DNA from: a virus
DNA: 64,000 nucleotides
Virus record (IMG/VR): IMGVR_UViG_3300024336_000001
Span: 1 to 64,000 of that record
Direction: 5' to 3' (one strand)
Every line of letters starts with the position of its first letter. The stretch's first letter is position 1. The position numbers and the translations under genes are program-made. The notes below the pieces were generated by a model. That model ran no database searches and was not told the origin of the DNA. It saw nothing but the letters and a program-made list of their open reading frames with translations. Shown here piece by piece: positions 8,245-61,800 of this stretch.

Positions 8245-8319
8245 TGGTAGCCCCGCCCGGAATTGAACCGGAGTTACTAGGATGAAAACCTAGTGTCCTA
8301 ACCACTAGACGACAGGGCC
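8245..8319 (-). tRNA. tRNA-Glu (anticodon TTC)
   Basis: Reverse complement GGCCCTG TC GTCTAGTGGTTAGGAC A CTAGG TTTTCAT CCTAG TAAC TCCGG TTCAATT CCGGG CGGGGCT A CCA folds as a cloverleaf with encoded CCA. Confidence 0.95.
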
Positions 8320-29115: not shown

Positions 29116-29133
29116 TGTTTGATGCGTCAAACA
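29116..29133. promoter_or_regulatory. Operator-like palindrome, copy 1
   Basis: TGTTTGATGCGTCAAACA, overlapping a TATAAT at 29111-29116. Confidence 0.7.
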
Positions 29134-29164: not shown

Positions 29165-29674
29165 ATGAAAGAAATAAAAACAGACAACATACAAATTATT
29201 CAATATAAGAACGGGAAGCAACATAGTTTAAAAGATGAAATGGTGCGGATGTTCCATTTTGAAAAACGAGATTTTAAAAATGCCCTCCGTTATTCCCATG
29301 AATACATTGTGGCTTGTCTTGAGATATCAAACAACCCTGAATATGCTGTAGGTATAAACACCTGGTATTTTCGTGATAATAAGAACGAGCGATTATTTCC
29401 AACCTGGAAAAGAGCCTTAATTTCTCAGCCAGTGATACCAGCCTCAATAATTCAAAGACGCAGGCTTAACAAATACCTTCAGAACAGAATAAAGGAGCTG
29501 AAAGACACCAGTTCTTTAGACACTTTTTATGTCTTTGCTCCTTATAAAATTGATATAATGAAAAGAGTCCTTAACACAATTTATTCGGAATATGTTTATT
29601 ATCGGGATAAAGTGGGTAATACATCTATATTGAGTAGAGATGAGAGGAGATATATATGCCACAAAAGAAAATGA
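29165..29674 (+). CDS. Hypothetical protein
   Basis: 169-aa ORF with an AAGGGA RBS. Confidence 0.55.
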   Translation: MKEIKTDNIQIIQYKNGKQHSLKDEMVRMFHFEKRDFKNALRYSHEYIVACLEISNNPEYAVGINTWYFRDNKNERLFPTWKRALISQPVIPASIIQRRRLNKYLQNRIKELKDTSSLDTFYVFAPYKIDIMKRVLNTIYSEYVYYRDKVGNTSILSRDERRYICHKRK

Positions 29675-29898
29675 TAGCAACCCCTTTTGAAAAGCTTGCG
29701 GAAAAGTTAAGTCAGCGACTGGGCAAAAAAGTAGATTTAAACAAAGGCTGGGGAATATTTTTGCCCATAGCACTAAAAGCATCCTTGGGGAATTTACCTA
29801 AGAATGTTTTTTATTCAGCTACAGAACAAAAACCGTTTGCAGCTCCATTGCCTCCGAGATATTTAACCACAGCTTTTTCGACCATTTCCGTAAATTAG
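29671..29898 (+). CDS. Small hypothetical protein
   Basis: ATGA coupling with the upstream ORF (start MIATP). Confidence 0.35.
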   Translation: MIATPFEKLAEKLSQRLGKKVDLNKGWGIFLPIALKASLGNLPKNVFYSATEQKPFAAPLPPRYLTTAFSTISVN

Positions 29899-30109
29899 TC
29901 AAACCTAAACACGTCTTTAATCTTTTGAATTCAAAAATTCTTTTAAAAATGGTACAGTATAAAGTATATTGACCGTATTGTTTGTATGCTTTATAGGATG
30001 CGTCACCAGTATGATTTAATAGCAGTTGAATAATGTGGGAGGGGAGCTTATATAAGTCAGTAAATACCTTATACCCGAAATAAGGGGTAGCAAAATAGGG
30101 AGCCAGAAG

Positions 30110-31816
30110 ATGAATAAATTAAAAAAGAAAACAAAAGAAAAAGAAACGCTTCTCTCTGCTAATTTTATCACAAAAGATGGTTTAGAACACAAAGAACTAG
30201 ACCTTCCTGAAAGTCACCCTGGAAAACTATCCCTCGGAAGAAATGTAACCGATACAAATATTATCCCGCATGAAGACAGATTAGATCTTGATGGCGAAGA
30301 TGTTGCTGGTTTATTCCCAGAGGTAAAAAAAGAAGTATTTGAACCAACGACCGGTATTCAAGATAAAGATAAAAATTATATTCTTGAAAACGAAATCACA
30401 AATCTAGTTGAGGATGTCCAAAAAACAAAAGAAACCCCACAAATTATCAATGCTAACGACCTTGTTTTTACTGTTACCAAAAAAGAACCAGGAGATAGGG
30501 TTGAGATTATCCAGGATTACCCGGCTAAAGTTTTTCCAGAGCCTAAAAATAAAGCTTTTATTGAAAAAATAGACGAAATATGGAGCGAGACATCTTCAGG
30601 GATGTCTTTTCATCATCTCTACACAGAAGACTTTGCGCTAGATGGCCGAGAAATACACATTAAAGGGCAAAAGGTTCTCAATTTTGGGTCTTGTAGTTAT
30701 TTGGGCTTAGAGCACCACCCAAAGCTAAAAGAAGGAGCGATAGAGGCAATACAGAGATACGGCACTCAATACTCTTCGTCCATTACTTATCTGTCATTAG
30801 GTTTATATAAAGAACTGAAAGAAAAATACACAAAAATATTTGGAAGTAACGTTGTGTTAGCCCCAACGACAACCTTGGCTCATGCATCTAGCATTCCATT
30901 GATAGCTGATGAACACGACGTTTTTTTGTTAGACCAACAAGTTCACAACTCTGTACAAATGGGCACTCAATTAGCCGCAGCGCAGGGGACACCTTTTTTT
31001 ATAATGCCTCACAACAATATCGAGGCTCTTGAAGATAAAATCCAGAAATTGAAAAATGAACATAGAAAAATTTGGTATTTTCTTGATGGGGTTTACTCAA
31101 TGTATGGAGATCTAGCCCCTATTGCCGAGCTAGAAAAGTTGCGAGATAAATATGACAATTTATATCTTTATATAGATGATGCTCACGGAACAAGCTGGCG
31201 AGGAAAAAATGGGAAAGGTCATGCGTTAAGCTGCCTGAAAAGCTTAAGGAAGACCATAGTCGCTGTTTCTAACAACAAGGCGTTTGCTGGGGCCGGAGGA
31301 TCCTTGGTTATAGAAGATCCAGAACTTTATAATGTTATAAGCAATTTTGGTCAGACAATGATTTTTGGGGGACCAATTCAACCGGCCAACTTAGGAGCAT
31401 GTTTGGCTTCTGCCGATATTCATTTATCAAAAGAAATTTATGTGCTTCAAGATAAGCTTAGATCAAAGATTGATCTAAGAAATAGATTGTTTGATAAATA
31501 TGATATTCCGGTTTTTGGAGATCGCCAAACCCCCATATCCTTTATTTGTGTGGGATCCCCAAAATCCCTTGGGATCCTTTTTCATAAATTGTTTGAAGAT
31601 GGCATTTACACTAATTGTGCAGTATATCCGGCTGTATCCAAACAAAAAAGTGGTCTTAGGACAACAATGACTAATCATCTTACAGATGCGGACATTGAAA
31701 AATTTGTTGAGCGAGTTGCCTATCATTTGCCCAAAATTCTTCAAGAAGAAGGGTCCTCGATAGAAAAAATTAAAAAGAGGTTTAAAATAAAAGAGAGAAA
31801 CCTTGTAAAGGTTTAA
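30110..31816 (+). CDS. PLP-dependent alpha-oxoamine synthase (BioF/Kbl/CqsA/LqsA fold) with an N-terminal extension of about 150 aa
   Basis: NFGSCSYLGL, DQQVHNS (stacking His), DGVYSMYGD, IDDAHG (Asp), SNNKAF (PLP Lys), YPAV...GLR. Confidence 0.85.
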   Translation: MNKLKKKTKEKETLLSANFITKDGLEHKELDLPESHPGKLSLGRNVTDTNIIPHEDRLDLDGEDVAGLFPEVKKEVFEPTTGIQDKDKNYILENEITNLVEDVQKTKETPQIINANDLVFTVTKKEPGDRVEIIQDYPAKVFPEPKNKAFIEKIDEIWSETSSGMSFHHLYTEDFALDGREIHIKGQKVLNFGSCSYLGLEHHPKLKEGAIEAIQRYGTQYSSSITYLSLGLYKELKEKYTKIFGSNVVLAPTTTLAHASSIPLIADEHDVFLLDQQVHNSVQMGTQLAAAQGTPFFIMPHNNIEALEDKIQKLKNEHRKIWYFLDGVYSMYGDLAPIAELEKLRDKYDNLYLYIDDAHGTSWRGKNGKGHALSCLKSLRKTIVAVSNNKAFAGAGGSLVIEDPELYNVISNFGQTMIFGGPIQPANLGACLASADIHLSKEIYVLQDKLRSKIDLRNRLFDKYDIPVFGDRQTPISFICVGSPKSLGILFHKLFEDGIYTNCAVYPAVSKQKSGLRTTMTNHLTDADIEKFVERVAYHLPKILQEEGSSIEKIKKRFKIKERNLVKV

Positions 31817-31818
31817 CC

Positions 31819-34686
31819 TTGGATATATTTTACTGGTCTTCGATAGCTGCTTTTTTTCTCACATTATTTTTGGCCGTCTTTGTGTATTTTGAGGACAAGC
31901 AACGAAGCACCCACAAAGTATTAGGCTTGTTTGTTTTAATCTTGGCCGTAGGCATCTTTGGTGATTTTTATTACAGAATTCCAATAATTAACTCTTCTTT
32001 TATACCCAATATATTGCGGGGCATTTTCGCCATTGTGCCGTTTTCTCCGGCTTTATGGGTACATTTTATTTTCTTGTTTACAAAAATTAAACCAAAAAAA
32101 CACGTACTCTCGACTATATATTTAAGTTCATTGGTGTTATCGGTGTTAAATGTGCTATTTCCTAAATTTATTTTTAGTGAAGTTTCTTTAACGGCGACAC
32201 ATCTTCTTAAGACAACCCCGTCCATAGGATTTTATTTATTTGCTATATATATCTTCGGGGGGGCAACTCTAAGTCTGTATTTTGTTATTAAAGCAAGAAA
32301 GCGCAGCGCAGGGCATTTTAGAGAGCAACTAAACTATTATTTGTTTGCAAACGTTATTATTTTTATAGCTGTAATATTGTATGCAATAGCGGTTGGTTTC
32401 TTTCCGGGCTTTCCTCGCCTGGATAATGTGTTTTTAAGTATATATGTTTTAATTATTGTTTATAGTATTACTAGAAGAGAGCTATTAAACATAAAACTCC
32501 TTGTTGGCCGTCTGCTCACATATGGGCTATTAGTAGCGGGGGTCGGCTTTGTGATGTATATGTCTCGTTTTTCCGTAGACAGTTTCTATTTATCTTCGCT
32601 CGTGGCTTTCGTTATCTCTACTTGGCTGGCATCATTTATTTTTATCAAGGGCAAAAGAAGCTTAATTAATAGAGTATTTGCAGGGTTTTTATTAACGCTA
32701 TCTGCCGGAATATTTGGCGATTACTTTTATTATACGCCAGTGGTTAACAATATTGCTCCAAGAGAATTGTTAAGAGCAGCGTATGTAATAACACCTTTTT
32801 CTGCATCTACGTTATTACATTTTATATTCTTATTCACAAAGACTAAGCCTCCCAAGGGTATAGTCCCATTATTATATACTGGATCTATATTATTGATGGT
32901 ATTGAACTTAGCGATACCAGCGTTTTATTTTCAATCAGCCACAGTTAAAACGTTAGGGGAGTTGAGCACGACAACGACACTGGCTTATCACGTCTTTAGT
33001 AGTTATAACCTGATGGCAGTATTGCTTAGTTTTGTGTTTGTAATACGCCGAAGAAGAAAAAGCAGAGGGAAATTAAGGGCGCAGATGAATTATTATCTTT
33101 TTGCTGCGGTTAGTATTATATGTGCAGCACTTTTATATTCTATTGCAATGGGAATTTCTCCAAATACTCCAAGATTAGATAATATATTCTTGGTTCTTTA
33201 TGTTTGTACCATTGCATATAGCATTACTAAAAGTGAACTATTTCAAATTCAGATTGTTATTAGTCGAACGCTTGCTTATGGGTTAACCTATGCCTCTGTA
33301 ATATTTATTTTTTTGCTAATGAACCTACATATTAAAGAGCCGAATATAAAAGTATGGTTTAATCTGTTTTATTGTTTACTGTGTGCATTGGTAGCTCCTA
33401 GAGTAAGAGGAAAGCTTCAGACTGGATTAGAAGAGAAATTTGTGTCAGACGATTATGAGCCTAATAAGGTTATAGATGAAATAACAAAAGATATTACCGG
33501 TGTTTATGAAAGAGAAGGTATTTTTAAAATTTTAATCAAAGCCATAGAAGCAATTATCAAAACCAAAGATAGTCATTTATTAGTTTTGGAAAAAGGGACT
33601 GAAAGAACCAACAATATTTTTCATTTATATGACAAGGATATGATAGAAGTTGCAAGTATGGACCCAGATAATCCGGTTATCAAATATTTTCATAATAAAT
33701 ATAAGCCAATAAAATTCAGTAAGCTAGATAAGGAAGCGCAGGGCGAACTAAAAAAATATTATATTAATAGATTTAGCATTCTAATTCCCTTATACTCTCC
33801 TCCCAATTTATTTGACGGGCTGCTTATTGTTGGACAAAAAGTATCAGAGGCCGCTTACACGAATAAAGATATAGGTTTGTTTCAAACCATTATAAATTTT
33901 ACAAAAGTGATTTTAGATAGACTCCGGCCATATGAGGAAATCAAGCAGGAGTACGCAGAAGATAGAGAGCGAGTATATGAAGCTAAAATGATGGAAATTC
34001 AAGCCAAAAAAAATGAGGACTTCGCTTATACTATTCAAGAGTATAACCACGAGATCAGAACCCCTTTAACTATGCTAATTGGAGCTATTCACACCTTACT
34101 TTATAAAATTAAAGGACAAAAGCCTATTTCGAACTTAAAAGAAGAGTTAGATGATATGCTAAAAAATGGAGAGAGGATGAACGATATAGTTGGCACAACA
34201 TTAAGGCTTACTCCAGGCAGCATTAGTGAAAGAAAGCGGAAAAGAGATCCCCAAGGAATAAATGAAATTATCCAGCAAGCACTTGATCTATATACGTTTG
34301 TACACGAGGTTAAGGTGATTAAGAATTTTAATGAAGAAGAGATATATGTATTCGGTGTTAATAATGATATTGAACGCATTTTCATAAATCTAATTCGTAA
34401 TGCCGATGAAGCAATGCCTAAAGGAGGAAAGCTTCAAATTAAAACCTCCCTGCAAAATCAAGAAGCTTGCATTGAGATAAAAGACACCGGAATAGGAATC
34501 CCGGAAGAAGATCAACAAAAAGTATGGGAAATACATCGCTCAAGACATGTAACAAAAGGCAGAGGCTTAGGTTTGTCGATAGTTCATAGATTAGTGACTG
34601 AGCACCAAGCCAGGATCACTTTAAATAGTATAGAAGGGGAAGGCACAACTTTTACTGTGCTTTTTCCGACAGTGGAGGCTATTTAG
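31819..34686 (+). CDS. Sensor histidine kinase with two tandem 7TM modules, a GAF-like domain, HisKA and HATPase
   Basis: H-box HEIRTPL, N-box NLIRNA, G1 DTGIGI, G2 GRGLGLSIV; duplicated membrane domain; TTG start 2 nt after the synthase stop. Confidence 0.92.
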   Translation: MDIFYWSSIAAFFLTLFLAVFVYFEDKQRSTHKVLGLFVLILAVGIFGDFYYRIPIINSSFIPNILRGIFAIVPFSPALWVHFIFLFTKIKPKKHVLSTIYLSSLVLSVLNVLFPKFIFSEVSLTATHLLKTTPSIGFYLFAIYIFGGATLSLYFVIKARKRSAGHFREQLNYYLFANVIIFIAVILYAIAVGFFPGFPRLDNVFLSIYVLIIVYSITRRELLNIKLLVGRLLTYGLLVAGVGFVMYMSRFSVDSFYLSSLVAFVISTWLASFIFIKGKRSLINRVFAGFLLTLSAGIFGDYFYYTPVVNNIAPRELLRAAYVITPFSASTLLHFIFLFTKTKPPKGIVPLLYTGSILLMVLNLAIPAFYFQSATVKTLGELSTTTTLAYHVFSSYNLMAVLLSFVFVIRRRRKSRGKLRAQMNYYLFAAVSIICAALLYSIAMGISPNTPRLDNIFLVLYVCTIAYSITKSELFQIQIVISRTLAYGLTYASVIFIFLLMNLHIKEPNIKVWFNLFYCLLCALVAPRVRGKLQTGLEEKFVSDDYEPNKVIDEITKDITGVYEREGIFKILIKAIEAIIKTKDSHLLVLEKGTERTNNIFHLYDKDMIEVASMDPDNPVIKYFHNKYKPIKFSKLDKEAQGELKKYYINRFSILIPLYSPPNLFDGLLIVGQKVSEAAYTNKDIGLFQTIINFTKVILDRLRPYEEIKQEYAEDRERVYEAKMMEIQAKKNEDFAYTIQEYNHEIRTPLTMLIGAIHTLLYKIKGQKPISNLKEELDDMLKNGERMNDIVGTTLRLTPGSISERKRKRDPQGINEIIQQALDLYTFVHEVKVIKNFNEEEIYVFGVNNDIERIFINLIRNADEAMPKGGKLQIKTSLQNQEACIEIKDTGIGIPEEDQQKVWEIHRSRHVTKGRGLGLSIVHRLVTEHQARITLNSIEGEGTTFTVLFPTVEAI

Positions 34687-34921
34687 CCTCTGTAAGCGTC
34701 TGGGGTTTATTGATATATATAGACACTGGTTTATTTGAAGTAGGTCCAAATAAAGCTTGCTTGCTTGATATCATGCTTTGAAAATTATCATCAGTATATT
34801 TGTGGCTATAGGGCACATATTTTTTTGCTAAATCGACAAATAGTTCCCCAGCCCTTTCAAAATTATCAACTATAATATTTTCAGCTAGACTAAAGTTTTC
34901 AATTACAATAAGGTTCCACAT
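34679..34921 (-). CDS. Hypothetical protein
   Basis: 80-aa ORF downstream of the response regulator. Confidence 0.5.
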   Translation of the reverse strand: MWNLIVIENFSLAENIIVDNFERAGELFVDLAKKYVPYSHKYTDDNFQSMISSKQALFGPTSNKPVSIYINKPQTLTEAK

Positions 34922-34963
34922 AGATATTCCCCAGGGCAGTTAAGATTAGCTGCTATCTCTTGA

Positions 34964-35461
34964 TTATTTAGATTCGTCTTCTAGTTCTTTGCGTCTGACA
35001 TAAGATTTTTCTCTTAGATCATCTTTCATGTATTCACCATGCTTTTTGATGACAACCTTTTCTAAAACATCTACTAATTCGTCTGGGTTAAATGGTTTTT
35101 TAAGATACCCTACTGCACCCCCCACAATGGGGCTAGTAGCTTTAGCCCATTTTTTTTGATCTTCGTAAGCACTTAGTATAATAACACTCATTTCTTCATA
35201 AAAGCCTTCAGATTTGCGCCACTCCCTGAGCATATCAAGCCCATCCAGGTCAGGCATTTTTATGTCTAAAATTACACAATCAATTTTATTTGGTCCTATA
35301 CCAACCCAGGTTTTATGTTTTTTTAATGTTTTCAAGCCTTCTTTTCCGCCGTTAGCGGTAATGATATTCCATCCTAAACGATCCTCAACAGTATTTTTTA
35401 TCAAGTTTGTAACGCCCACCTCATCATCAATAGCTAAAATTAAAGGTTTACCTTTTTTCAT
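34964..35461 (-). CDS. Single-domain (CheY-like) response regulator
   Basis: ILAIDDE, ILDIKMPDLDG (phospho-Asp), ILSA, YLKKPF; no DNA-binding domain. Confidence 0.92.
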   Translation of the reverse strand: MKKGKPLILAIDDEVGVTNLIKNTVEDRLGWNIITANGGKEGLKTLKKHKTWVGIGPNKIDCVILDIKMPDLDGLDMLREWRKSEGFYEEMSVIILSAYEDQKKWAKATSPIVGGAVGYLKKPFNPDELVDVLEKVVIKKHGEYMKDDLREKSYVRRKELEDESK

Positions 35462-35888
35462 TTATGCCTCCTTTTTCAAATTTATTGTCCCAATAATCAA
35501 GACAATGCCCAAGAACATGATAAGGGCCTAAAAAGAAACCTTTAATTGGAAAATACACAATTAAAGGAAGATAGATAGCGAAAACAGTAAAAGCCTCTAC
35601 AAACGGATGAGAGGGCTTTCTTTGACCGGCTTTATACTCTTTTTCAACCCGTGTTTTTTCGTATTCATTGCCAATGGCGTTTAGATAATAAGCCATATGT
35701 TTGTGGAAACTAGCTTGAGGATATGATTTTCTGTTCATAAGAGAATCACGTATACAGCGAGCCATGTTTTTGTACCAAGAAACAAAGCCACCTAAAAAAC
35801 CAATTATCGCTCCGTAAACTATTGACCATAACAATACGATTAAAAAGTAAATGTAAAATAAGATTTTTTTCATATAATAGCCTTCCAT
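35448..35888 (-). CDS. Two-segment membrane protein co-transcribed with the response regulator
   Basis: Two hydrophobic segments; overlaps the regulator start. Confidence 0.6.
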   Translation of the reverse strand: MEGYYMKKILFYIYFLIVLLWSIVYGAIIGFLGGFVSWYKNMARCIRDSLMNRKSYPQASFHKHMAYYLNAIGNEYEKTRVEKEYKAGQRKPSHPFVEAFTVFAIYLPLIVYFPIKGFFLGPYHVLGHCLDYWDNKFEKGGINEKR

Positions 35889-35926: not shown

Positions 35927-35944
35927 TGTTTGATGCATCAAACA
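35927..35944. promoter_or_regulatory. Operator-like palindrome, copy 2
   Basis: Perfect TGTTTGATGCATCAAACA between divergent TATAAT boxes (minus strand near 35898-35903, plus strand 35961-35966). Confidence 0.7.
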
Positions 35945-41005: not shown

Positions 41006-41581
41006 ATGACATCTATAAACGAAACTTTAGAAAGTGAAATTGATAAAGAATTAAATGAGCTTCAAGAAAATAAACCTGAGATGGTTCCCATTGAAGCTCT
41101 TGATGAAGCAGTTCAGGGAGCTTTTGATAAACAGTTTAAAGAATATGCAGAAAGATATTTAAGCTCGTATAACAAATATGTGCAGGCTAAGGCTGTTATG
41201 GATGATTTAAAAAACAAATCTGATGCTGCGGAGGTAGCAATGATTTCTTTTGCAAGGGATATTGGGGTTTTAACCAGTGAAGTAGCTCTTACTTATGACG
41301 GAATGGGAACGTTCAAGATTAAAGAGGCATATTTCGGTAATGTGACAAAGGCAAATCGGGCGAAAGTGTTTGCATTCTTTCGAAACCAGAAACGAGAAAA
41401 CGAATTTTTTGAATTGTCAGTACGGAAAGCTGAGGTCAATAAATTTGTTCGAGAGAAGGTCGATAAATGCAAGAAAAATAGTAAAGGAGGTGAGATCGAG
41501 CCTGATTTACCAGATGGCGTTTCTTTTGGAAAGAAACACAGCGTTTCATTATCAAACCGAAACTCTAGTTTTGGTGTATAA
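41006..41581 (+). CDS. Phage replication-module protein of unknown function
   Basis: Coiled coil plus LPDGVS C-terminal motif; AAGGAG RBS. Confidence 0.55.
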   Translation: MTSINETLESEIDKELNELQENKPEMVPIEALDEAVQGAFDKQFKEYAERYLSSYNKYVQAKAVMDDLKNKSDAAEVAMISFARDIGVLTSEVALTYDGMGTFKIKEAYFGNVTKANRAKVFAFFRNQKRENEFFELSVRKAEVNKFVREKVDKCKKNSKGGEIEPDLPDGVSFGKKHSVSLSNRNSSFGV

Positions 41582-41607
41582 AAAATATTTTTAAGGAGGA
41601 AGTTATT

Positions 41608-42621
41608 ATGGATTGGCCAAACGAAGAAGTTGAAGAGGCAAAACAAAATACCGGGATAGTAGAACCGGCAAAAAAAGAAACAAAACAAGAAGACGCTCCA
41701 AGCGAGGAAGAAGCTTTCGAGCAGTTAGGAGAAGATATGATGCAAGATGCACCACAAGAAAAAACTGAGACACCATCCCCTGCCCCTGAACCAGAAAAAA
41801 AAGAAGAAAAGAAAGAGGATAAGTCACCAGAAACTCAAACAACGGCTGTTGAAGCAAAGCCAGAGCAAGCATTATCTACAGAAATTAATATGGAGGAGCA
41901 CTTTATTGACGGAAAACCTAGAGGCTCTGTAGACATGGATGCTGGGGCATTGAATACGCCGAGATGGGCGATTGTCCAAGGTATATCTGATATTGCAAAA
42001 ACTCACCCAGACGCTCCAGGAAAAATTTATTTTTCAATGAACGATACTTTGCACAAAAAAGTAGAATTTTTGGTTATAGATTTTAAGCTTAACAGAAGGA
42101 TGTTTGAACCTTTCAAGGATGAAAAGGGCAATAAGATAAAGGACCGATCAACACACCCCCTGTGTTACTCAGATACCGGACAGCTTAATGACGGTGGCGT
42201 TTTACACCCAGCCCTGCAATCTGTTCGATGTTCAGAATGCCCACATTCAAAATGGAAAGAAAGTGAGCAACCTGCCTGTACGATATTTCATAACTACCTT
42301 GTTATCTCGGTAGAGCAATTAATAGCTAAAGAAAGCTTGCCTTCCATTCTTGCTTGCTCAAAATCTCAAACCAGAGAAACAAAAAAATTCAATACAGAGC
42401 TTAATTCCAAAATGGTTAGCTACAAAGGAGCTTCTGTTCGAGCACCATATTATTTTAATGTTTATTCATTAGAATCAATCGTGTCTCCAAACAATCCTGA
42501 TGTCGGCTATATTCCAGTTTTCAATTTAGTTCGATCAGCGACAGCAGAAGAAATTAATGCGTGTCTGCAAATATCCAAGCAATTTGAATCTATTGAATGG
42601 GCAAGTTTAAGAGAAGGATAA
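41608..42621 (+). CDS. Putative ssDNA-binding/recombination protein
   Basis: Acidic N-terminus; PLCYSDTG...CSECPHSKW...PAC Zn motif typical of phage SSB-like proteins. Confidence 0.5.
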   Translation: MDWPNEEVEEAKQNTGIVEPAKKETKQEDAPSEEEAFEQLGEDMMQDAPQEKTETPSPAPEPEKKEEKKEDKSPETQTTAVEAKPEQALSTEINMEEHFIDGKPRGSVDMDAGALNTPRWAIVQGISDIAKTHPDAPGKIYFSMNDTLHKKVEFLVIDFKLNRRMFEPFKDEKGNKIKDRSTHPLCYSDTGQLNDGGVLHPALQSVRCSECPHSKWKESEQPACTIFHNYLVISVEQLIAKESLPSILACSKSQTRETKKFNTELNSKMVSYKGASVRAPYYFNVYSLESIVSPNNPDVGYIPVFNLVRSATAEEINACLQISKQFESIEWASLREG

Positions 42622-42662
42622 TCGTTTGATACACCAAACAAAAACAACTACAAGGAGGTATA

Positions 42663-52832: not shown

Positions 52833-55800
52833 CTAAATACTCCCTGAAACTACGGTGACGGACAAAACATCGGTTGCTCCTGATGTTTGCCTTATGTCCA
52901 GATAATTGCCACTATATTGAAGGTCAAAAGGACTACTGCCCGTGCTACTCAAAACAGCTTCATTCCAATATATACCCTTTCCTGAATAAGAATAGGCAAT
53001 AATCGCTGAATGCCCATTTGTGCTTAAATTAGCAAAAACAAGCCCTGATTCTCTTGAACCATTAAAAGCCTTCAGTGTATACCAAACATTGTTTGATGCG
53101 CTTTCAATTCTCTTAGTTGTAAAGTTCCCTCTCCCATATAAAGATAATCGGCTATCATTTTGATATAAATCTAAAAAACCTTCTTGCGTTAAACACATTT
53201 TCTCAGAAATGGCATCTGAGGATCTGGTATAAAATGAAAGATCTCCTGATACACCAGAATCTCGCCGCTTCCCTTTAATCATTGCCGACAAATGGTCATC
53301 GTCAGACTCGTAATTGCTGGTTGTTGTATGAAATCTTAGCTCTGGCCCTGCACCATCCGATGTAGATGAATGTGAAAGTACCAGCAAATTAGCACTAGAG
53401 TCTTTAATAATACATTTTGTATCAATAACTGTAGTGCCTATCCCTACTTGACCATCTCCCGTAAACCTTATTGCCTCTGCCCCACCGGGCTTGAAAATTA
53501 TATGGCCAGTTGAATTCCAGCCTGCTGTAATTGTTAGCTCGTTTGATTGTCCCACTCTTAAAACATCTATTCCGCTGTGATTAATTCCAAACCTATTCCC
53601 AGAGTTGTAATTATTTTCTATTGTTGTTTTATAGGCACTTTCTTCTGTTCCTAAGACTATTTGGGTTGTTGCATGATATTTACTTATTTCAAGGCCGTTA
53701 GTCGCTGCCGGAGCCGTAGTACCAATACCAACTTTCCCATCATTTTTAATTACAAATTTTGTTGAGTGGCTGTCACCTGGTGTATAAAACTGGAAGTCGT
53801 ATGTATTAGAATATGTGTTTGGAATCGCTTTAATCCCCGCCGTAACTGTTCCTGCCATATTTGACTGAAACTTAATCTCACAAGGATAAACATCCAAATT
53901 AGTAGTATTCATATTATGTAACAACAACACAGTTCCAGCCGTGCTATTTGATTTGTATAGTTCTAATAATTGGCTTGGGGAAGATGTGCCAATCCCAACT
54001 CGTCCGCTCGAATTTTCACTCAGTATTTTTCGGCCATCGGTATCACTTGTAGGCGCACTTCCTTTTAGCCTAAGATCCGCATTGTCATCTAACCAAATTC
54101 TATGATTAGCTGTATGGGTGGCTAATCCTAAAGACACTCTCTCTGCATCAGAACCTAACTCAAGATTTATGAAACCACCACCGTTACCTGTCCCGTGCGC
54201 CCAAATGATTCGCTTATCGTCCCCTGTATCCTTTACGTCTAATTTATAAAGAGGGTCCCCATCATCAAGCCCTATGCCAGTATTCCCACTGCTATTGATA
54301 GTTAATCGATGCTCTCCCGCATCACTGTCATAAAAACTTAAAAAACCTCCGCCTATTGTCCAAGAACTATCAGTTGAAATCATGTTGTATTTTCTGCCGC
54401 CGGTCCCGCTCGACCAAACGCCAACCCAGGGAGAAGCTGTCTGGCTAAGAATTGCTCCAGCCACTTCTAATTTTTGACCTGGGTTAGTTGCTCCTATCCC
54501 AACGTTTCCGTCACTTGCTATTCTTATGCGCTCCGCACTATTAACATGAAACACCATATAATCCACAGGTGTGCCACCTGTAAAATGGTAATAGCCTATC
54601 ATTCCTGGAGATCCATCTTTATCGCTAAAATGTATTCTATTTCCAATGCTTGTAGGTGAAGTGGCTGAAGCAAATAAGTTTATTTGCGATGCGTTATATG
54701 CCTCAGCGTGTGTACCTTCTATTGTTAGTGTGGATGTATCTCCATAAGAGCCATATATATGAAGTCTTGTAGAGGGGCTGCTAGTCCCAATCCCAACCTC
54801 TCCCGTAGGAGTAACCGCAAGTTTGCTTACCCCGCCTGTTGTTAAATTTCTTATTTCAAAATTATCACCACTCGCCCCATTAATTCGCATTCCCCAATTA
54901 ATCGCATCATTTCCTATTCCTATGCCTATGATTCCATTAGCTGTGGTCCCATTATGTACATAGAGTGGGTACTGATTATCTGTGGCTACTTCAACATGCA
55001 GCAACTCCGTTGGCTGATCTGTACCTATTCCAACTCGCCCAGTAGCGTTTTTTATTGTAACGGCCCGACTCCAAGCTGTTGAATCGTGTCTCCATAAAGC
55101 TAAATCTGAGTTTGCTTGTAATTGCCATGCCATTTTTTTATTTGAATCAGAGTTATAAAACTCTACCCCTGATACGCCTGTCGAAGAGTTTGTGTTTTCT
55201 AATGTGAGATAAGAATAATCAGCGTGTTTTATATGAAATATTGTACTAGGACTAGATATGCCAATCCCCCATTTCCCATCACTAGTTATCCTTGCCGCTT
55301 CATTGCTCGTAAGTAACCCATTAAGAGAAAAAATAATAGGGATCGCACTTTCTGTTGCCAGCACTAAGCCTGATGTTGACGCTTGCGCTGATACAAAACA
55401 TCGTCCCGTTAAAATTGTGTGTGTAGAGTGCGCTGTTCCTGCCACACCAATGTTACAACCGCCTCCGGTATCATTTAATGTTCCCCAATAAACTAATCCA
55501 GCACTGTTTATGTTTTCAGCCCTTGCTCTCAAGGAGCTTGCTGTTGATTTATAGACGTGAAGCTCATAGTCTGGGTTTGTTGTGCCAAGACCGACATTGC
55601 CACCATTGTAATAGATTTCACTCCCATTAGCAGACCAGTAGGTATCACTTGAGGTTCCCACAGGCACTCCATTAATCGTGATGCTATCAGCCTCGATATT
55701 TCCAACAACTTCAAGCGGGTGTCCTGGTGAAGTTGTACCAATGCCAACATTTCCATTATTTCTTATATATACTTTAGGCGTTGCAGATGATGCGCTATTT

Positions 55801-58800
55801 CCTGGGGCATAAAGTGCAAGGAAATCGTAGTTATTTTCCCACCCTGTTTTAATAACTTTGTTGTAAGCAGCGGTTGGGTTAATGATTGCACTACCATAGT
55901 TGAATCCTATGTCACCCCTAACATCAAGCTTAACAACAGGTGATGCTGTGCCAATACCAACGCTGCCCTCCTCATCTATGGTCATTCTCTTTAAAAGGCC
56001 AGCCGAGTGGTTATATGTCCAAAAATCTAAGGCCGTATGGTTATTGGTCGATGGGTTCAATCTGTATGCGTTTATCCTGGCATAGCCTCCAGCCCAAGTG
56101 ATTCCCCCCATGCTGCTGGGGTTAGATGTTGTCCCCCCTGACCAGCTATAATCGATATTAATCGTGTCATGAACGGCTTCCCCATATTCAAAATAATCTT
56201 TTATATGTAATCGAGTAGACGGAGAACCTGTTCCTATACCAACATCACCTGAAAAATCAATCATAAAGGGAATTTCTGATTTAGATTCGTTTTTTAAATA
56301 AAAATTATCATTGCCTGCGTCCATCCCCAATGTATAAGCGCATTGACCATTTTGGATCAATAAGATTCGACAAGCTTCCCCGTCTTCAGTAGCTATACGA
56401 AGTGGCCCTTGGTTATACCCAACATTAACGGCACTTCCAATATGTAACAAAGCTTCGGGTGTCGTGTTTCCTATGCCTATATTTCCATCACCATCAACAA
56501 CAAAATCAAATCTGGCATCATCATTGTTATAAAGAATAAAGCCCAATCCATCCACACCCAATTTAAAAGAATCTCTGCCCCCGTCCGTAGACTCTATAAA
56601 AAGATAGGTGCTTGAAGAGGAACTTAAGTGTAAAAGACTTTGTGGGTCTGAGACTCCTATTCCAACGTCTCCGGCATTGTAATAAGCTTTTGGTCCATTA
56701 ACTGACCAAACATTAGAGGCTGTTGTTAAATTAGTTTCTGCCCCTGCTGAACTCTTGTAGTATAAAAAACCATCCGAAGCTTTTACATACAGCTTCCCAT
56801 ATCCTGCCGAAACCCCCGGCGGCGTTACCATCTCATCAAATGAAACAGCTCCCTCTACAGTAAGTTTTTCGTTAATGCTGCTTGTACCAACTCCAAAATT
56901 ACCGCTCTTAACATAGCTATCTCCACCTGGATTAAAAGCTATTCGAGCAGTCGCCCCGTCATAAAGATAAAGCTTTATAGCTGAAACGCCATCATACAAT
57001 GAAACAGCTCCGGCATTGGGAGCAAGATGTAAGTTGCCAGCCACGGTTTTTATGGTTGGCGTACCCCCGCCAGACAAAGCAATATTTCCCTCAACACCCA
57101 ATGCTTCACTTGGGATGCTTGTGCCTATCCCGACTCTCCCCTCCCCAGTTATTCTCATTTTTTCGGTTCCCGTGCGTACACTACGATCATCACTGGTGTA
57201 AAAGCGAATATACTTTGTTGTATTATAACTATTCAAACCCCCGCCAATAAATAAATGGTTTTCGACAGAATTAGAGTCAAAAAACAACCCCAGGTAGCCT
57301 TCGGATTCTGCTGCTGAATTATACTGAGAACCAATGATAGCTCCAAATTTTTGAGTATCATTGTCTTCGTTAGAAGATAATCTTAGCTCATAGTTAACAT
57401 GAAAAGTGTCCAGTGGGTTTTCTATTCCTATACCCACCTTGCCATCAGTTCTAAACGTTGCCCAGGTTGAAGCTTTATCGGTAGACCCTATTTTCAATAC
57501 CGAGTCGGTTCTTCCCCAAATAGCACCTGCACTATGAAATATAATCGTAGCCGCATTTGCATCAGACCCGACTCCTGCTGCGGTAATGCGTAAAGTAGCT
57601 CCTCCTGAAACGACTGGGTTTTGTGTTAGCTTCACGGTTTTGTCATCACCGAAAACTTCCAATATTTCATCTGGGCTGGTAGTTCCTATCCCAATTTTTC
57701 CAGTTGGATCTACAGTTAAAGCTCGAATTGGAGCTAAGTTAACTCCTGAGCTTTGGGTTAGAATATTAAAGCGGCTCTCACTTGCCTCAAACCCAAAAAC
57801 ATTTGCATAAGAAGACGTTACAGTTTGAGTTGCGTAGGTAGTTGCATCTCCTAATGTTCCGTTAAGAAATATAAATTGTTTTGCCCCGGAACCAGAGTAA
57901 ACCTGAGCAATATTTACCTGCCTGTTTGTTGCGCCGGTTGGTGAATAACCCCCAATAAACATATAGTGAACTTGATCGTATCCTTCATTTTTAACCATTA
58001 TTCGGCCAGTTTTACACAAGATATTCCCGGATACATCAAGCTTTTCTGTCGGGTTGCTTTCAGCGATACCAACTTTCCCGGTATTAAATCGAAAACCCGT
58101 ATCCGCAGTAAAATCCAAATACCCATCGTTTAAAGATCCGATATGAATAGCTGAATCTCTGAATTTAATCGTATTATTACTTGTTATCGTTCCGCCAGCT
58201 AAAGGAAGAAACCCTGAAATTTGGTGGGTATGGCTTGTCGCTGTCAAAGCATTTGTTGATCCTGTATCACAAGTGCTTGGGGTTCCCATAGTTATAGATC
58301 CTGAGCTTGTGATAGTAGAAAAATCCATCCCGTTTCCGGCAGAAACACTCAAAACTCCATCATCCGGGCTTAAAAGAGACTGCCAATCGGACATAGCCGT
58401 ATTATTGCCAGTTGAATTTATATAGGTTTGGTCTTCGTCTGTCCTTACACAGACATCACCTTTTTGTACTGTTAATGCCAGTTGCGCCGTTTCGTTGGCT
58501 GCTACATACGTTTCCGTAATAGCCAAAGCCGGTAATACAGAATTTTCAAGCTTTCCGCTTCCATTAAGGACAGGGATATTTCCTGATCCGGTTCCTGTGT
58601 CTTTTATGGCCGCTGTGCCTAATCCCAAAGTGCCTCTAGCTGTGCTAACGTTTGCATCATCTAGCAATGTCCTGGCAAAAGAAGATAAGCTCGTTACTGC
58701 ATAGGTATCATACGCCGTTGTATAAATCATTTTATCTGTATCAGTAACCAGATCTGCTATAGAAGCTAGTCCTACATCATAACTTTGGATATCAACATCG

Positions 58801-61800
58801 ATCTCCAAGCCCAAATTATTTCTGGCCGCCTCTGCGCTACTTGCGCCTGTGCCACCATTAACAATTTCAAGGTCTGCTCCACTCCAGTTATTATTGTTAA
58901 TTGTATTTAATGTAGACAGGCTTCCAAAGCCCGCCTCAGTTCTTGTTTGATTAATCCATTTACTAGAGCCAAAATCATATGCAAGCAATTCATTGTCTGC
59001 CGGGGAAGAAATGACCGTATCATCTAAACCGGCTAAGGTTCCTGCTGGCAAGTCACCCCAAGCAACAACACCCAAGCCGTTCGTTTTTAAAACCTGTTCA
59101 TCAGAGCCATCAACTGAAGGTAAAACATATGCCCCTATTTTCACGGATCCATTTACGTGTAATTTTTCTGTTGGGGTATCTATTCCAATTCCTAGTCCGG
59201 TGCTGGTCAATTTCATTCTGGTGCTTGTAAGGCTCTGGTCAGTAAAATAAATATTGATTCCGCCTAAATAGATGTTGTTCGTGTCTGAATAAACAACCGC
59301 ACCTTTTCCGCTTGCAATTCCTAGCCGCACCTTATTTGCTCCTGAGCCAGCCATAACCCTAACAAAAGAATCCGCTGCGCTTGTATCGATATCTAATTTT
59401 TCACTTGGACCTGTTGTCCCAATCCCAACGTTCCCATCCCAGCTTACAGTTAATTGTTTTTGATTAGATGTCATTAAACTTAGATTCGTGGCATTTGCAT
59501 AAGCCGAAGCAGAATAAGCAACCATTCCTCCCATTTTGCTAGACTCTCCTGCGGATCCCTCTGTTGCTAGTTTCAATAAGAAACCAAGCTCTCTTGTGCC
59601 AGAACTACTGCTTGCGCCCCTGTGTCCGATTACAACTGCTTCTGAATATGCGCCTGTACTTGTCCCGGTTGATACCTCCATTTTTGGAGTAACCCCAGCA
59701 AACATACCCGCACTTCCGTTCATTGTCATTGGGTTACTTACACCAATCCCAACCTCTCCTGAACTTAATATTGTCATTCGCTCAACTAAATCAGCATAAA
59801 GATACGTGCCTGCGTTTTGTACCAAAAAGGCAAGGCGAGGGTTTAAAGGACTTGGATTGCTTGCCATTGTAATAAGCCTAAGTTCAGCCGAATACTCTGA
59901 TATTGAAGCTCCTGTGGTATTACTAATATTTATAGATGTGTATTCATTTTGAAGTATTGATTGGCTTTTTACCCGTAACCCAATAGTGTCTTTGTCTGTT
60001 GAAACATCAAGTTTATAATTTGGATTAGTGTCCATAATCCCGACATTGCCACCGCTTAATATTCTCATTGCCTCCAACGCAGTAGCCACATCATTCACAT
60101 AAAACCTTAAAGCATGACTCCCCTTTAACATCTCATTTGCCGGATTAAATATCATATACCTTGAGTTTGTTGTAGCCTCTATCTTTAGGTTAGGGTCGTT
60201 GGCTTTGATATGCAGTAAAGAATCTGGTGTCGATGTTCCAATGCCCATCTCTCCTGAGCTTAATATTGTCATCCGTTCTACAATGTCCGCATATTCGTGT
60301 GTATATTTATTTTGCAGCAAAAAAGCCAAGCGAGGATTAAAAAAATTAGGGCTAGACTCTGTGGTAATCAGCCTTAGCTCGCCTGAATATGACGAAGGGT
60401 TAGAGCTTGAATTGCTTATATTAATCGCCGTGTAATTTCCCGCTATTCCGCAGTTGTTTCTTATTCTAAACGCAATGGTGCTAGGCTCTGACATAATATC
60501 AAATAAATAATAAGGATCAGCCTTTATCCCAAATTTATTATCGACTCTCGTTTGATCGTAATTATGCTTAAGCCTATAGACAAAAGCTCCGCCGGAATTG
60601 GGCGTTGAGCCAATCTGAAACTCGGCTTTATTACTATCAATAGTCTCACTTTTTAATATAAGATTAGGGTTCCCGGTAGCCTGCATTTTAAAATCAATGA
60701 ATGGCGAACTTCCCCTTAATCTTAAGTTTCCCTCAACATCTACTTTTTGTTCTGGTGAAGTAACACCAACACCTAAAGTCCCATCTACAGTAAAACCGCT
60801 ACTATTAAGTTTTGCTCTTTTAATACCTCCTGTCCCAAAAACAATATTTTGGTTCATATCAGCATCAGTGCTATAACCAGACACATCTATATAAGATTGA
60901 TATACAGTATCCAACCCTCCGCCAGCAGAAAGACGTAAAAACCCATCATTTTGTGCTAATGAATTTTCTCTGTAGCCTCTAACTTCGCCATCAATAACGG
61001 TTGTACTTAAAGATGGCCGAGCCATTGCTTCTCCTGTAGAACCTGGTAAAGCAAGTGAATTTGTATAAATCTGTGGTATGGGCTGTGTTTCTTCTCCAAT
61101 TAAATTTCTAAAAAAGGGATCATCTTTTGCATTAAGAAATGATCTTTTGTCCGCAACATTCGTAATATTTGTTGCATCTGTTGTTGCCACACAAATAGGA
61201 TAACAACGGGTCAAAAAGCCAGTAGTGTTTGAAGCTAAGACCCCTGAACCATTGATAAAAACATATGAGGTGGACAACGCAGGCAAGGTTATCGTCTGGT
61301 CATTATGTGAATAAAAGTTGGAACCATAAATAACCCTGCCGTTGTTGACTGTAAGATTTAAAGTTGGCGGTGCAACTACTGATGGTCTGTAATCCTGCGA
61401 AGTAGTAAACGGCTCCGATGTAAAAGAAGCCCGCTCATATTCAATTTTGTATTCGTGTTCAGATACAAAAAAATTCTGTTTATTTTGTTGAGAAGAGGCA
61501 CTGTTAATGTGCTTAATTCCTTCTCCTTGAGGAATGCCCGTATTTTTAATGGTTATATATAAATATCCATTGTAGTAAATCCAAGCCCACTGCTCATTTA
61601 AAATTTCTGCCGAAGTTAATGAAAGCATATTAACCACCGAAGTTAGTGGTTGTATAAAATACAATCTAGGTGAAATTGTTGGAGCTACAGTTGTTTTGAT
61701 TCGAAGCCAATATTTTGTAACAATATTTACTGTGTCAGTTGTAAAATCGCCCGGCAATGTAAATCTAATGCGCCCGGAACGTGTAAAATTTTCAGTGTCA

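What the first reader, a model, noticed from the sequence alone, without database searches (positions are those of the whole stretch)
30110..35888. Candidate phage-encoded small-molecule communication system: alpha-oxoamine synthase, dual-7TM kinase and response regulator
Seen: a PLP alpha-oxoamine synthase with intact His/Asp/Lys/Arg motifs ends 2 nt before a membrane sensor kinase. A convergent operon encodes a membrane protein and a single-domain response regulator. The block lies between a repressor cluster and the HU/HTH/recombinase genes, and no other biotin genes are in the window. Known: the Vibrio CqsA/CqsS and Legionella LqsA/LqsS quorum-sensing systems pair an enzyme of this fold (making amino/hydroxyketones) with a membrane kinase. 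Phage communication precedents use other arrangements (arbitrium peptides, phiCDHM1 agr genes, VP882 VqmA sensing host DPO). Inference: this phage both makes and senses its own aminoketone-type signal to count lysogens or tune lysis-lysogeny. The NFGSCSYLGL/APTTTLAH motifs differ from CqsA, so the signal may be new. The regulator lacks a DNA-binding domain, so output would need a partner protein or a host regulator.
Basis: partly seen in the sequence, partly recalled or inferred. Interest (0 to 1): 0.92.

Follow-up and report, generated by a model that had tools for sequence, protein, structure and literature searches.

The report
Phage-borne aminoketone synthase and sensor-kinase cassette
A complete marine phage genome carries a small-molecule-making enzyme, a membrane sensor kinase and a membrane-tethered receiver protein, and the same gene set occurs in uncultured Margulisbacteria; it is probably a chemical signalling circuit taken from bacteria, but no chemistry has been tested.

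Summary
An intact PLP alpha-oxoamine synthase (AOS, 30110-31816) ends 2 nt before a 955-aa histidine kinase with two HisKA_7TM sensor modules. A convergent operon encodes a 2-TM protein and a receiver-only response regulator. The record is a complete 88.8-kb phage with terminal repeats, and an independent seawater run confirms the junctions.

- The enzyme is neither CqsA/LqsA nor BioF, Kbl or SPT. It lies in a separate, uncharacterised AOS clade.
- The cassette is not a phage invention. A Margulisbacteria MAG contig holds homologues of five genes: a small ORF (51%), AOS (58%), kinase (44%), regulator (56%) and 2-TM protein (30%).
- In all five close relatives with known context, the AOS sits beside a HisKA_7TM protein whose output varies (kinase, PP2C phosphatase, unknown).
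- Across 160 loci of the wider clade, kinase genes are about 14-fold, and receiver genes about 9-fold, enriched within 1 kb of the AOS.
- The regulator's missing partner is probably the 2-TM protein, because two relatives are fused to this receiver type.

That the phage counts lysogens or tunes lysis-lysogeny is untested. The scan has already found many bacterial AOS-kinase modules on other DNA, but none in a phage.

The parts
29116..29133 (.). 18-bp palindrome TGTTTGATGCGTCAAACA; candidate operator upstream of the 29165 ORF that heads the plus-strand arm
   Evidence: Two sites in 64 kb against 0.06 expected by chance.
29165..29674 (+). 169-aa ORF of unknown function, the first gene after the palindrome; whether it belongs to the cassette is uncertain
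   Evidence: no Pfam family. No homologue in L189.
29656..29898 (+). 80-aa small ORF conserved upstream of the AOS
   Evidence: 51% identical over 65 aa to the 76-aa ORF at the same position in the Margulisbacteria contig L189. Covered by contigs from RNA libraries. No Pfam family.
30110..31816 (+). Alpha-oxoamine synthase, 568 aa: K/E-rich N-terminal extension (about residues 1-170) plus a PLP catalytic domain; stand-alone, with no GNAT/FemAB domain
31819..32574 (+). Histidine kinase, first 7TM sensor module (7TMa, residues 1-252)
   Evidence: HisKA_7TM match. 42% identical to 7TMb and 39% to the 7TM of the L189 kinase.
32575..33333 (+). Histidine kinase, second 7TM sensor module (7TMb, residues 253-505)
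   Evidence: 52% identical to the single 7TM of the L189 kinase. Internal DNA repeat D1.
33334..34686 (+). Histidine kinase cytoplasmic part: linker, HisKA (H744), HATPase_c; no receiver domain
   Evidence: 41-44% identical to the L082 and L189 kinases.
34679..34921 (-). 80-aa ORF downstream of the regulator; no homologue found, may not be a gene
34964..35461 (-). Receiver-only response regulator, 165 aa, with an insertion (WVGIGPNKID) and a C-terminal helix
   Evidence: the only receiver in the phage. 56% identical to the L189 regulator. 34-39% identical to the receivers fused to mem146-like domains.
35448..35888 (-). 146-aa 2-TM protein; probable membrane anchor or partner of the regulator
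   Evidence: Two hydrophobic segments. 30% identical to the L189 131-aa protein. The family has only 16 clusters in 1.84 billion representatives, and two of them are fused to receivers.
35927..35944 (.). Second copy of the 18-bp palindrome (TGTTTGATGCATCAAACA), next to the -35 of the promoter-like site of the 2-TM/regulator operon

Best explanation
This is a phage-borne, diverged copy of a bacterial signalling cassette found in marine Margulisbacteria.

Shown:
- The genes are intact.
- The kinase and regulator descend from a pair that shares one operon in the cellular version, so they are most likely cognate.
- The regulator type is fused to the 2-TM protein type in other organisms.
- The AOS and HisKA_7TM proteins are inherited together.

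Inferred:
- The stand-alone AOS condenses an amino acid with a host acyl-CoA or acyl-ACP into a hydrophobic alpha-aminoketone or a derivative of it.
- That compound, or a membrane change it causes, is read inside the membrane by the 7TM modules of the kinase.
- The kinase sets the phosphorylation state of a CheY-like regulator that acts at the membrane together with the 2-TM protein.
- In the phage the cassette lies in the repressor/integrase region, bracketed by a shared palindromic operator-like site. It would therefore run in lysogens or early in infection, either as the phage's own channel or to tap into or override the host's homologous circuit.
For: 1. Real phage. The record is 88,849 bp with a 127-bp terminal repeat and CheckV 100%. 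It has a terminase, ParA/ParB, primase-helicase and integrase.

2. The whole cassette is conserved in L189, a 17.9-kb Margulisiibacteriota MAG contig with cellular flanks (MatE, FdhD, MFS). Identities are small ORF 51%, AOS 58%, kinase 44% over 701 aa, regulator 56% and 2-TM protein 30%.

3. In 5 of 5 sub-clade loci with known context, the AOS adjoins a HisKA_7TM protein:
- phage: kinase;
- L082: kinase, convergent;
- L189: PP2C and kinase;
- L002, a single-cell genome: PP2C;
- L190: unknown output.
The sensor is the constant partner and the output varies. None of these five modules has a DNA-binding output, which argues against 'the sensor merely regulates AOS transcription'.

4. In the wider clade (160 loci), kinase catalytic ORFs occur at 21.6 per 100 kb within 1 kb of the AOS and about 1.5 per 100 kb beyond 3 kb. 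Receivers occur at 16.1 against about 1.9. Of 91 loci with at least 2 kb on both flanks, 49 have a two-component gene within 1 kb.

5. The enzyme is catalytically intact and falls outside BioF, Kbl, SPT and CqsA. The phage has no biotin, acyl-ligase or ACP genes.

6. Fusion evidence: relatives of the 2-TM protein (P0131, P0135) are fused to receivers that carry the same insertion as the phage regulator.

7. The cassette occurs in at least 8 seawater or marine runs from several studies. Identical contigs from three RNA libraries cover the AOS 5' end, the regulator and the 2-TM gene.

8. Precedent: CqsS binds CAI-1 within its transmembrane domain (PMC13729885).
Against: - No product, ligand or phosphotransfer has been measured.
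- Gene adjacency cannot say whether the AOS feeds the sensor or the sensor answers to something else.
- In the wider clade the neighbouring kinases are mostly cytoplasmic PAS kinases (32 of 56), and 29 of 46 regulators are DNA-binding (GerE or LytTR). That fits 'a two-component system regulates the enzyme' equally well.
- The five sub-clade loci represent only two or three independent lineages.
- Only 4 of 146 Margulisbacteria genomes carry the AOS.
- The RNA evidence comes from assembled contigs of RNA libraries, which may contain DNA.
- The host assignment rests on MAG binning and on homology of 30-68%. GC differs: phage 37.8%, L189 28%.
Confidence: 0.5

Rival explanations
1. Cell-autonomous membrane-lipid module. 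The AOS starts synthesis of a sphingoid-like or aminolipid membrane component. The 7TM kinase and PP2C proteins monitor membrane composition as homeostatic feedback. The phage uses the cassette to remodel the host envelope, for example to block superinfection, rather than to communicate.
For: - Among solved structures, the nearest named function after the AONS-labelled entries is serine palmitoyltransferase (112 bits).
- The sensor is polytopic with almost no loops, as expected for a lipid or membrane sensor.
- The output arm is membrane-bound.
- From general knowledge, an algal virus (EhV) encodes a serine palmitoyltransferase for lipid synthesis.
Against: - The enzyme is far below every SPT cut-off (164 against 640 bits) and lies in a separate clade from an SPT equivalog of the same genomes.
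- No reductase, acyltransferase, ACP or acyl ligase accompanies it in the phage or in L189, L190 or L002.
- An MFS transporter lies next to the L189 cassette, which would suit export.
Confidence: 0.25
2. One reading: a private phage quorum system. The phage makes its own new aminoketone signal, secretes it, senses it with the dual-7TM kinase, and uses lysogen or phage density to set lysis-lysogeny.
For: - All the points for synthase-sensor coupling apply.
- The cassette lies between the repressor genes and the integrase.
- Both arms share a palindrome.
- The extra 7TM module is seen only in the phage kinase. L189 and P0122 have one module each.
- Phage precedents exist: phiCDHM1 agr (PMC3901668) and, from general knowledge, arbitrium.
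Against: - Nothing links the regulator to a repressor, antirepressor or any DNA-binding output.
- The cassette is inherited from cellular versions with the same parts, so it need not be private.
- Secretion of a signal is untested.
Confidence: 0.15
3. Signal interference. The phage kinase and regulator act as decoys or hijackers of the host's homologous two-component pathway, and the AOS is carried along or floods the host receptor. This would be manipulation of host behaviour rather than communication.
For: - Homologues at 44-56% identity to a cellular kinase/regulator pair could cross-talk with a host pair.
- A receiver-only regulator can act as a phosphate sink (general knowledge).
- Phage proteins that target host two-component systems are known (PMC10714779, title and abstract as listed).
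Against: All catalytic residues of all three proteins are kept, and the small ORF and the 2-TM partner are kept too. This points to a complete working circuit rather than a decoy.
Confidence: 0.08
4. Artefact: an assembly chimera or host contamination inside a viral bin.
For: The sequence comes from a metagenome, and the cassette genes are of cellular type.
Against: - The contig has direct terminal repeats.
- Zero-difference contigs from another sample bridge the cassette junctions.
- The cassette is held by many runs.
- Phage genes flank it on both sides.
Confidence: 0.02

Closest known systems
Vibrio CqsA/CqsS (CAI-1 alpha-hydroxyketone quorum sensing)
   Same: - A PLP enzyme of the alpha-oxoamine synthase fold is encoded beside a polytopic membrane histidine kinase that lacks a periplasmic domain.
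- In CqsS the ligand binds inside the transmembrane domain (PMC13729885).
   Different: - The enzyme is not of that family: 89 bits against the 428-bit cut-off of NF005526, only 49 bits to CqsA structures, and a separate clade with 100% support.
- The sensor is two HisKA_7TM modules and has no fused receiver.
- No LuxU/LuxO-type relay is present.
- The cassette sits on a phage.
Legionella LqsA/LqsS/LqsT/LqsR
   Same: A synthase, a membrane kinase and a regulator without a classical DNA-binding domain lie in one cluster. From general knowledge, that cluster also holds a small membrane-protein gene (hdeD).
   Different: - Different enzyme clade and different sensor fold family.
- The regulator here is a bare receiver tied to a 2-TM protein.
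Clostridioides difficile phage phiCDHM1 agr genes (PMC3901668)
   Same: A phage genome carries both signal-production genes and a histidine-kinase receptor taken from bacteria.
   Different: - The agr signal is a processed peptide; here a small-molecule enzyme takes that role.
- From general knowledge, phiCDHM1 lacks the response regulator, whereas this phage has one plus its membrane partner.
Uncharacterised bacterial AOS-GNAT ('BioF2-like') cassettes with DUF7793, PAS kinase and LuxR-type regulator (Bacteroidota and others)
   Same: - Same AOS clade: 40-48% identity, and the best NCBIfam model is NF005697.
- Same strong linkage to two-component genes.
   Different: - Those enzymes are fused to a GNAT/FemAB-like domain, which is absent from the phage.
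- Their kinases are cytoplasmic PAS types and their regulators bind DNA.
CqsA-homologue/kinase adjacencies proposed in silico in CPR bacteria (Bernard et al. 2020, PMC7567580)
   Same: The idea that AOS-type enzymes next to sensory kinases outside Vibrio and Legionella are complete signalling systems.
   Different: Different phyla, and none of those cases is on a virus. The relationship of those enzymes to this clade was not tested here.
Phage communication or eavesdropping systems (arbitrium; VP882 VqmA-Phi)
   Same: Temperate phages that use small signals to inform their decisions (general knowledge).
   Different: Those systems use peptides or a cytoplasmic receptor for a host signal. None has an AOS enzyme or a two-component phosphotransfer pair.

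Membership tests
Alpha-oxoamine synthase superfamily (PLP fold type I; BioF/Kbl/SPT/ALAS/CqsA) | Aminotran_1_2 domain with the PLP lysine and the His / Asp-x-x-His / Arg residues | tested here: met
   PF00155 at E=1e-24. H258, D356, H359, K390 and R517 are invariant in alignment A1.
CqsA/LqsA alpha-hydroxyketone autoinducer synthases (NF005526) | Score above the curated equivalog cut-off (428 bits) | tested here: not met
   88.5-89.2 bits.
CqsA/LqsA alpha-hydroxyketone autoinducer synthases (NF005526) | Groups with bona fide CqsA/LqsA in a tree | tested here: not met
   Ten equivalogs (L179-L188) form their own clade. The phage enzyme lies in a different clade of 43 rows with 100% SH-aLRT support, in a quick IQ-TREE search.
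CqsA/LqsA alpha-hydroxyketone autoinducer synthases (NF005526) | Product is an alpha-hydroxyketone or amino-ketone autoinducer | not testable with these tools
   Needs enzymology and LC-MS.
CqsS/LqsS-type receptor kinases | Polytopic TM sensor without a periplasmic domain, encoded next to the synthase | tested here: met
   About 12-14 hydrophobic segments in residues 1-505. The gap to the AOS is 2 nt.
CqsS/LqsS-type receptor kinases | Same sensor family and domain layout (CqsS: TMD-DHp-CA-receiver, PMC13729885) | tested here: not met
   The layout is 2x HisKA_7TM + HisKA + HATPase_c with no receiver. Homology of the TM part to CqsS itself was not tested.
BioF (8-amino-7-oxononanoate synthase, TIGR00858) | Equivalog score and a biotin-pathway context | tested here: not met
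   174 bits against a cut-off of 426. No bioA, bioB or bioD in the phage. Genomes that hold the clade also have a separate BioF.
Serine palmitoyltransferase (NF047599/600/603) | Equivalog score | tested here: not met
   164, 134 and 91 bits against cut-offs of 640, 500 and 670. The SPT equivalog L170 falls on the other side of the tree.
NF005697 (PRK07505) / 'BioF2-like' AOS clade | Best-scoring model, and a clade shared with AOS-GNAT fusions | tested here: inconclusive
   It is the best model but falls below its cut-off (272 against 342 bits), as does a fusion member (266 bits). The clade has 100% support. The GNAT/FemAB domain is absent from the phage.
Two-component system (kinase plus cognate regulator) | HisKA with His, HATPase_c with N/G1/G2 boxes; receiver with DD, D, S/T and K | tested here: met
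   The homologues are co-operonic in L189.
Phage-encoded communication systems | Encoded on a bona fide phage genome | tested here: met
   Direct terminal repeats, CheckV 100%, terminase, integrase.
Phage-encoded communication systems | A secreted signal changes a phage decision | not testable with these tools
   Needs a cultured host or a heterologous reporter.

The most novel reading that the evidence does not exclude
A temperate phage of marine Margulisbacteria runs a small-molecule channel of its own. Its AOS would make an aminoketone that differs from the host's. The phage-specific extra sensor module (7TMa) would read one signal and the host-like module (7TMb) the other. A single kinase would then integrate host density and lysogen density and pass the result, through a membrane-tethered receiver, to the lysis-lysogeny or superinfection decision.
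Probability: 0.1. Interest if true: 0.92.

Novelty: new variant of a known kind. Interest (0 to 1): 0.72.

Why it matters
- Phages are known to carry peptide signalling genes or receptors for host signals. No phage in the collections searched here carries a small-molecule synthase of the alpha-oxoamine type together with a complete kinase/regulator pair.
- If the circuit works as inferred, phage chemical signalling would extend to a new enzyme class and to a candidate phylum that has no cultured marine members.
- The phage copy is compact, with all parts within 7 kb, and could be expressed heterologously. That makes it a workable entry point into a widespread but uncharacterised family of bacterial AOS-sensor cassettes.
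- The fusion evidence also defines a new kind of membrane-tethered receiver output.

Tried and rejected
The contexts of P0003, P0005 and P0006 therefore could not be read. P0004 and P0008 were reached through the genome search and the fetch from genomes instead.
- Scans of viral contigs with the AOS (single protein and alignment) and with the kinase found no relatives. A DNA search of GenBank phages found nothing.
- Protein searches of GenBank phages found only BioF/Kbl-type enzymes at 22-29% identity and generic kinase catalytic domains.
- A word-index search with the kinase sensor region returned only one relative and missed the L189 kinase, so it says little about rarity.
- The GNAT/FemAB domain was sought in the phage with a profile built from 108 fusion proteins; it gave no hit.
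- A local 7TM profile hit only L002 and L082 among the first 160 loci.
- The RNA contigs do not cover 32212-34014. This is not evidence of silence.
- Literature searches for oxoamine synthase + histidine kinase + autoinducer, for HisKA_7TM ligands and for DUF7793 gave nothing useful.
- The careful tree search did not finish, so the quick IQ-TREE result was used.
- No structure prediction was run. It would not have distinguished between the explanations.
Full report
**What is there**

The window is the first 64 kb of an 88,849-bp IMG/VR virus record. It has direct terminal repeats (127 bp) and a CheckV completeness of 100%. It encodes:
- a large terminase (3405-5270) and a replication initiator;
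- ParA/ParB, a primase-helicase and Dda-like and SNF2-like helicases;
- a tyrosine integrase, HU and several Cro/C1-type HTH proteins.

It is therefore a complete, probably temperate, tailed phage.
- The AOS (30110-31816) has an Aminotran_1_2 domain. H258, D356, H359, K390 and R517 are invariant among its closest relatives.
- Its stop codon is followed by CC and then the TTG start of the kinase, with AAAGG upstream.
- The kinase (955 aa) has two HisKA_7TM modules, HisKA (H744) and HATPase_c, and no receiver.
- On the other strand, a 146-aa 2-TM protein overlaps by 14 nt a 165-aa receiver-only regulator with all phospho-acceptor residues. This is the only receiver in the phage.
- The phage has no bioA, bioB or bioD, no acyl-activating enzyme and no ACP.

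**Not an artefact**

The cassette's sampled words are held by at least eight seawater or marine metagenome runs from several studies. In one independent run, contigs with zero differences span the AOS/kinase junction (31246-33770) and the kinase-end/regulator region (34225-35469).

Three RNA libraries hold identical contigs over the small upstream ORF, the AOS 5' end, the regulator and the 2-TM gene. This is only a hint of expression, because they are assembled contigs and DNA carry-over cannot be excluded.

**What the enzyme is**

NCBIfam scores are all below their cut-offs:

| Model | Bits | Cut-off |
|---|---|---|
| NF005697 / PRK07505 ('hypothetical protein') | 272 | 342 |
| bioF | 174 | 426 |
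| SPT | 164 | 640 |
| Kbl | 144 | 460 |
| CqsA/LqsA | 88.5 | 428 |

Among solved structures, CqsA is one of the most distant AOS enzymes (49 bits against 125 for the best hit).

A quick IQ-TREE search of 62 rows used equivalog-scoring BioF, Kbl and SPT from genomes that also hold the clade and ten CqsA/LqsA equivalogs. It puts the phage enzyme inside a 43-row clade with 100% support, apart from all of these.

Most members of that clade are about 810-aa fusions to a GNAT/FemAB-like domain, the 'BioF2-like' layout (109 of 160 loci). A review reports that the M. tuberculosis enzyme annotated bioF2 (Rv0032) does not complement a bioF deletion and has no known function (PMC12910592). Whether Rv0032 belongs to this clade was not tested here. 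The phage has no such GNAT/FemAB domain anywhere.

The phage enzyme belongs to a sub-clade (100% support) of stand-alone enzymes from marine metagenomes and Margulisbacteria.

**The decisive comparison**

One Margulisiibacteriota MAG contig, L189 (17.9 kb), has cellular flanks: MatE, FdhD, MFS, ParA/ParB and a PP2C gene. It carries the whole cassette:

| L189 gene | Identity to the phage gene |
|---|---|
| 76-aa ORF | 51% to phage 29656-29898 |
| AOS | 58% |
| 205-aa unknown | none |
| 7TM-type PP2C phosphatase | none |
| 2-TM protein (convergent operon) | 30% |
| Receiver-only regulator (convergent operon) | 56% |
| Single-7TM kinase (convergent operon) | 44% over 701 aa |

The phage kinase and regulator thus descend from a co-operonic pair. 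In the phage the kinase has moved behind the AOS and has gained a second 7TM module.

Other sub-clade loci keep the same link:
- L082, a Tara surface-water contig: AOS 58%, with a convergent kinase at 41%.
- L002, a Margulisbacteria single-cell genome: the AOS is followed 84 bp later by a HisKA_7TM-PP2C protein.
- L190: the AOS is followed by a 481-aa HisKA_7TM protein.

In five of five loci the AOS neighbour has a HisKA_7TM sensor while the output differs, and none of these modules contains a DNA-binding output. This pattern is what one expects if the enzyme's product (or its effect on the membrane) is the sensor's input. It is not what one expects if the sensor simply controls the enzyme's transcription.

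**The wider clade**

The analysis covered 160 loci from genomes and metagenomes, searched with locally iterated profiles.
- Kinase catalytic ORFs occur at 21.6 per 100 kb within 1 kb of the AOS and about 1.5 per 100 kb beyond 3 kb.
- Receivers occur at 16.1 against about 1.9.
- Of 91 loci with at least 2 kb of flank on both sides, 49 have a two-component gene within 1 kb.

The loci are related to one another, so these are not independent counts.

In this wider clade the kinases are mainly PAS types (32 of 56), and the regulators are mainly GerE (24 of 46) or LytTR (5). A DUF7793 protein recurs in 26 of 141 other neighbours. The direction of the link is therefore ambiguous in the wider clade.

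**The output arm**

The 2-TM protein belongs to a very small family: 16 clusters among 1.84 billion representatives. Two members are fused to one or two receivers (P0135 and P0131). Those receivers are 34-39% identical to the phage regulator over its whole length, including its unusual insertion and its C-terminal helix.

Together with the overlapping genes in both the phage and L189, this makes a membrane-tethered receiver complex the likely output. What it controls is unknown.

**Host and origin**

- A 21-kb contig binned in a Marinamargulisbacteria MAG carries syntenic homologues of the phage portal (55%), terminase (66-67%) and three further genes. Its GC of 46.5% is close to that of another contig of the same MAG (47.8%).
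- This, together with the cassette homologies, suggests a marine Margulisbacteria host. That is an inference from binning.
- Identities of 30-58% and the GC difference (phage 37.8%, L189 28%) exclude a recent capture from that particular lineage.

**Regulation**

An 18-bp palindrome occurs at 29116, upstream of the 29165 ORF. It occurs again at 35927, next to the -35 of a promoter-like site for the 2-TM/regulator operon. This compares with 0.06 sites expected by chance. A degenerate third copy lies at 42623. One DNA-binding protein may therefore control both arms.

**Comparison and novelty**

- In layout the cassette works like Cqs/Lqs, but it fails their membership tests.
- The idea that AOS-type enzymes next to kinases form signalling systems was proposed for CPR bacteria in 2020 (PMC7567580).
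- This scan has logged 37 bacterial AOS-kinase findings, including the Bacteroidota AOS-acyltransferase cassette.
- None of those is on a phage. The searches of IMG/VR and GenBank phages done here found no other phage with this enzyme clade or this kinase.
- The nearest phage precedent is phiCDHM1, which carries agr genes (PMC3901668).
- I therefore class this as a new variant of a known kind. The evidence for a functional synthase-sensor-regulator unit is solid. The evidence for a diffusible signal is moderate, and there is none yet for a role in lysis-lysogeny.

Noticed in passing
window 29116-29133, 35927-35944, 42623-42645: An 18-bp palindrome (TGTTTGATGC[G/A]TCAAACA) brackets the cassette, and a degenerate third copy lies ahead of the 42667 ORF that precedes the primase. 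It is a candidate operator for one of the phage HTH proteins.
   Followed up: partly
window 29808-30408 and 41227-41827: In the independent DNA run, summed contig depth is about 17-20 in these bins against about 4-6 elsewhere. In several runs, contigs leave the phage sequence at 30406 (a codon boundary after AOS residue 99), 25972 and 41788. These look like mosaic junctions shared with more abundant relatives.
   Followed up: no
L191/L192 (G003:C14, 20,984 bp): A contig binned in a Marinamargulisbacteria MAG carries a syntenic block homologous to the phage portal, terminase, two neighbouring genes and the Dda-like helicase (35-66% identity). It is a related phage or prophage and gives a hint about the host.
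   Followed up: partly
P0131 (481 aa), P0135 (340 aa): Natural fusions of the mem146-like 2-TM domain with one or two receivers of the same unusual subtype. Together they define an undescribed membrane-tethered receiver family.
   Followed up: partly
loci L018, L022, L047, L059, L067, L070 and others: A DUF7793 protein sits between the AOS-GNAT fusion and the PAS kinase in many Bacteroidota loci (26 of 141 non-two-component neighbours). No literature on it was found.
   Followed up: partly
L019:6743-8011: In a Marinamargulisbacteria MAG, an FAD amine-oxidase-like gene overlaps the start of an AOS-GNAT fusion, which is followed directly by a 119-aa receiver-only regulator and an omptin-like gene.
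   Followed up: no
window 52833-62396 (-): A single 3187-aa ORF. It was not examined.
   Followed up: no
window 8245-8319 (-): A phage-encoded tRNA-Glu (anticodon TTC).
   Followed up: no
window 30110-30620: The AOS has a K/E-rich N-terminal extension of about 170 aa that is conserved in outline in the marine and Margulisbacteria sub-clade (P0002-P0004, L189) and absent from other AOS enzymes. Its function is unknown.
   Followed up: partly
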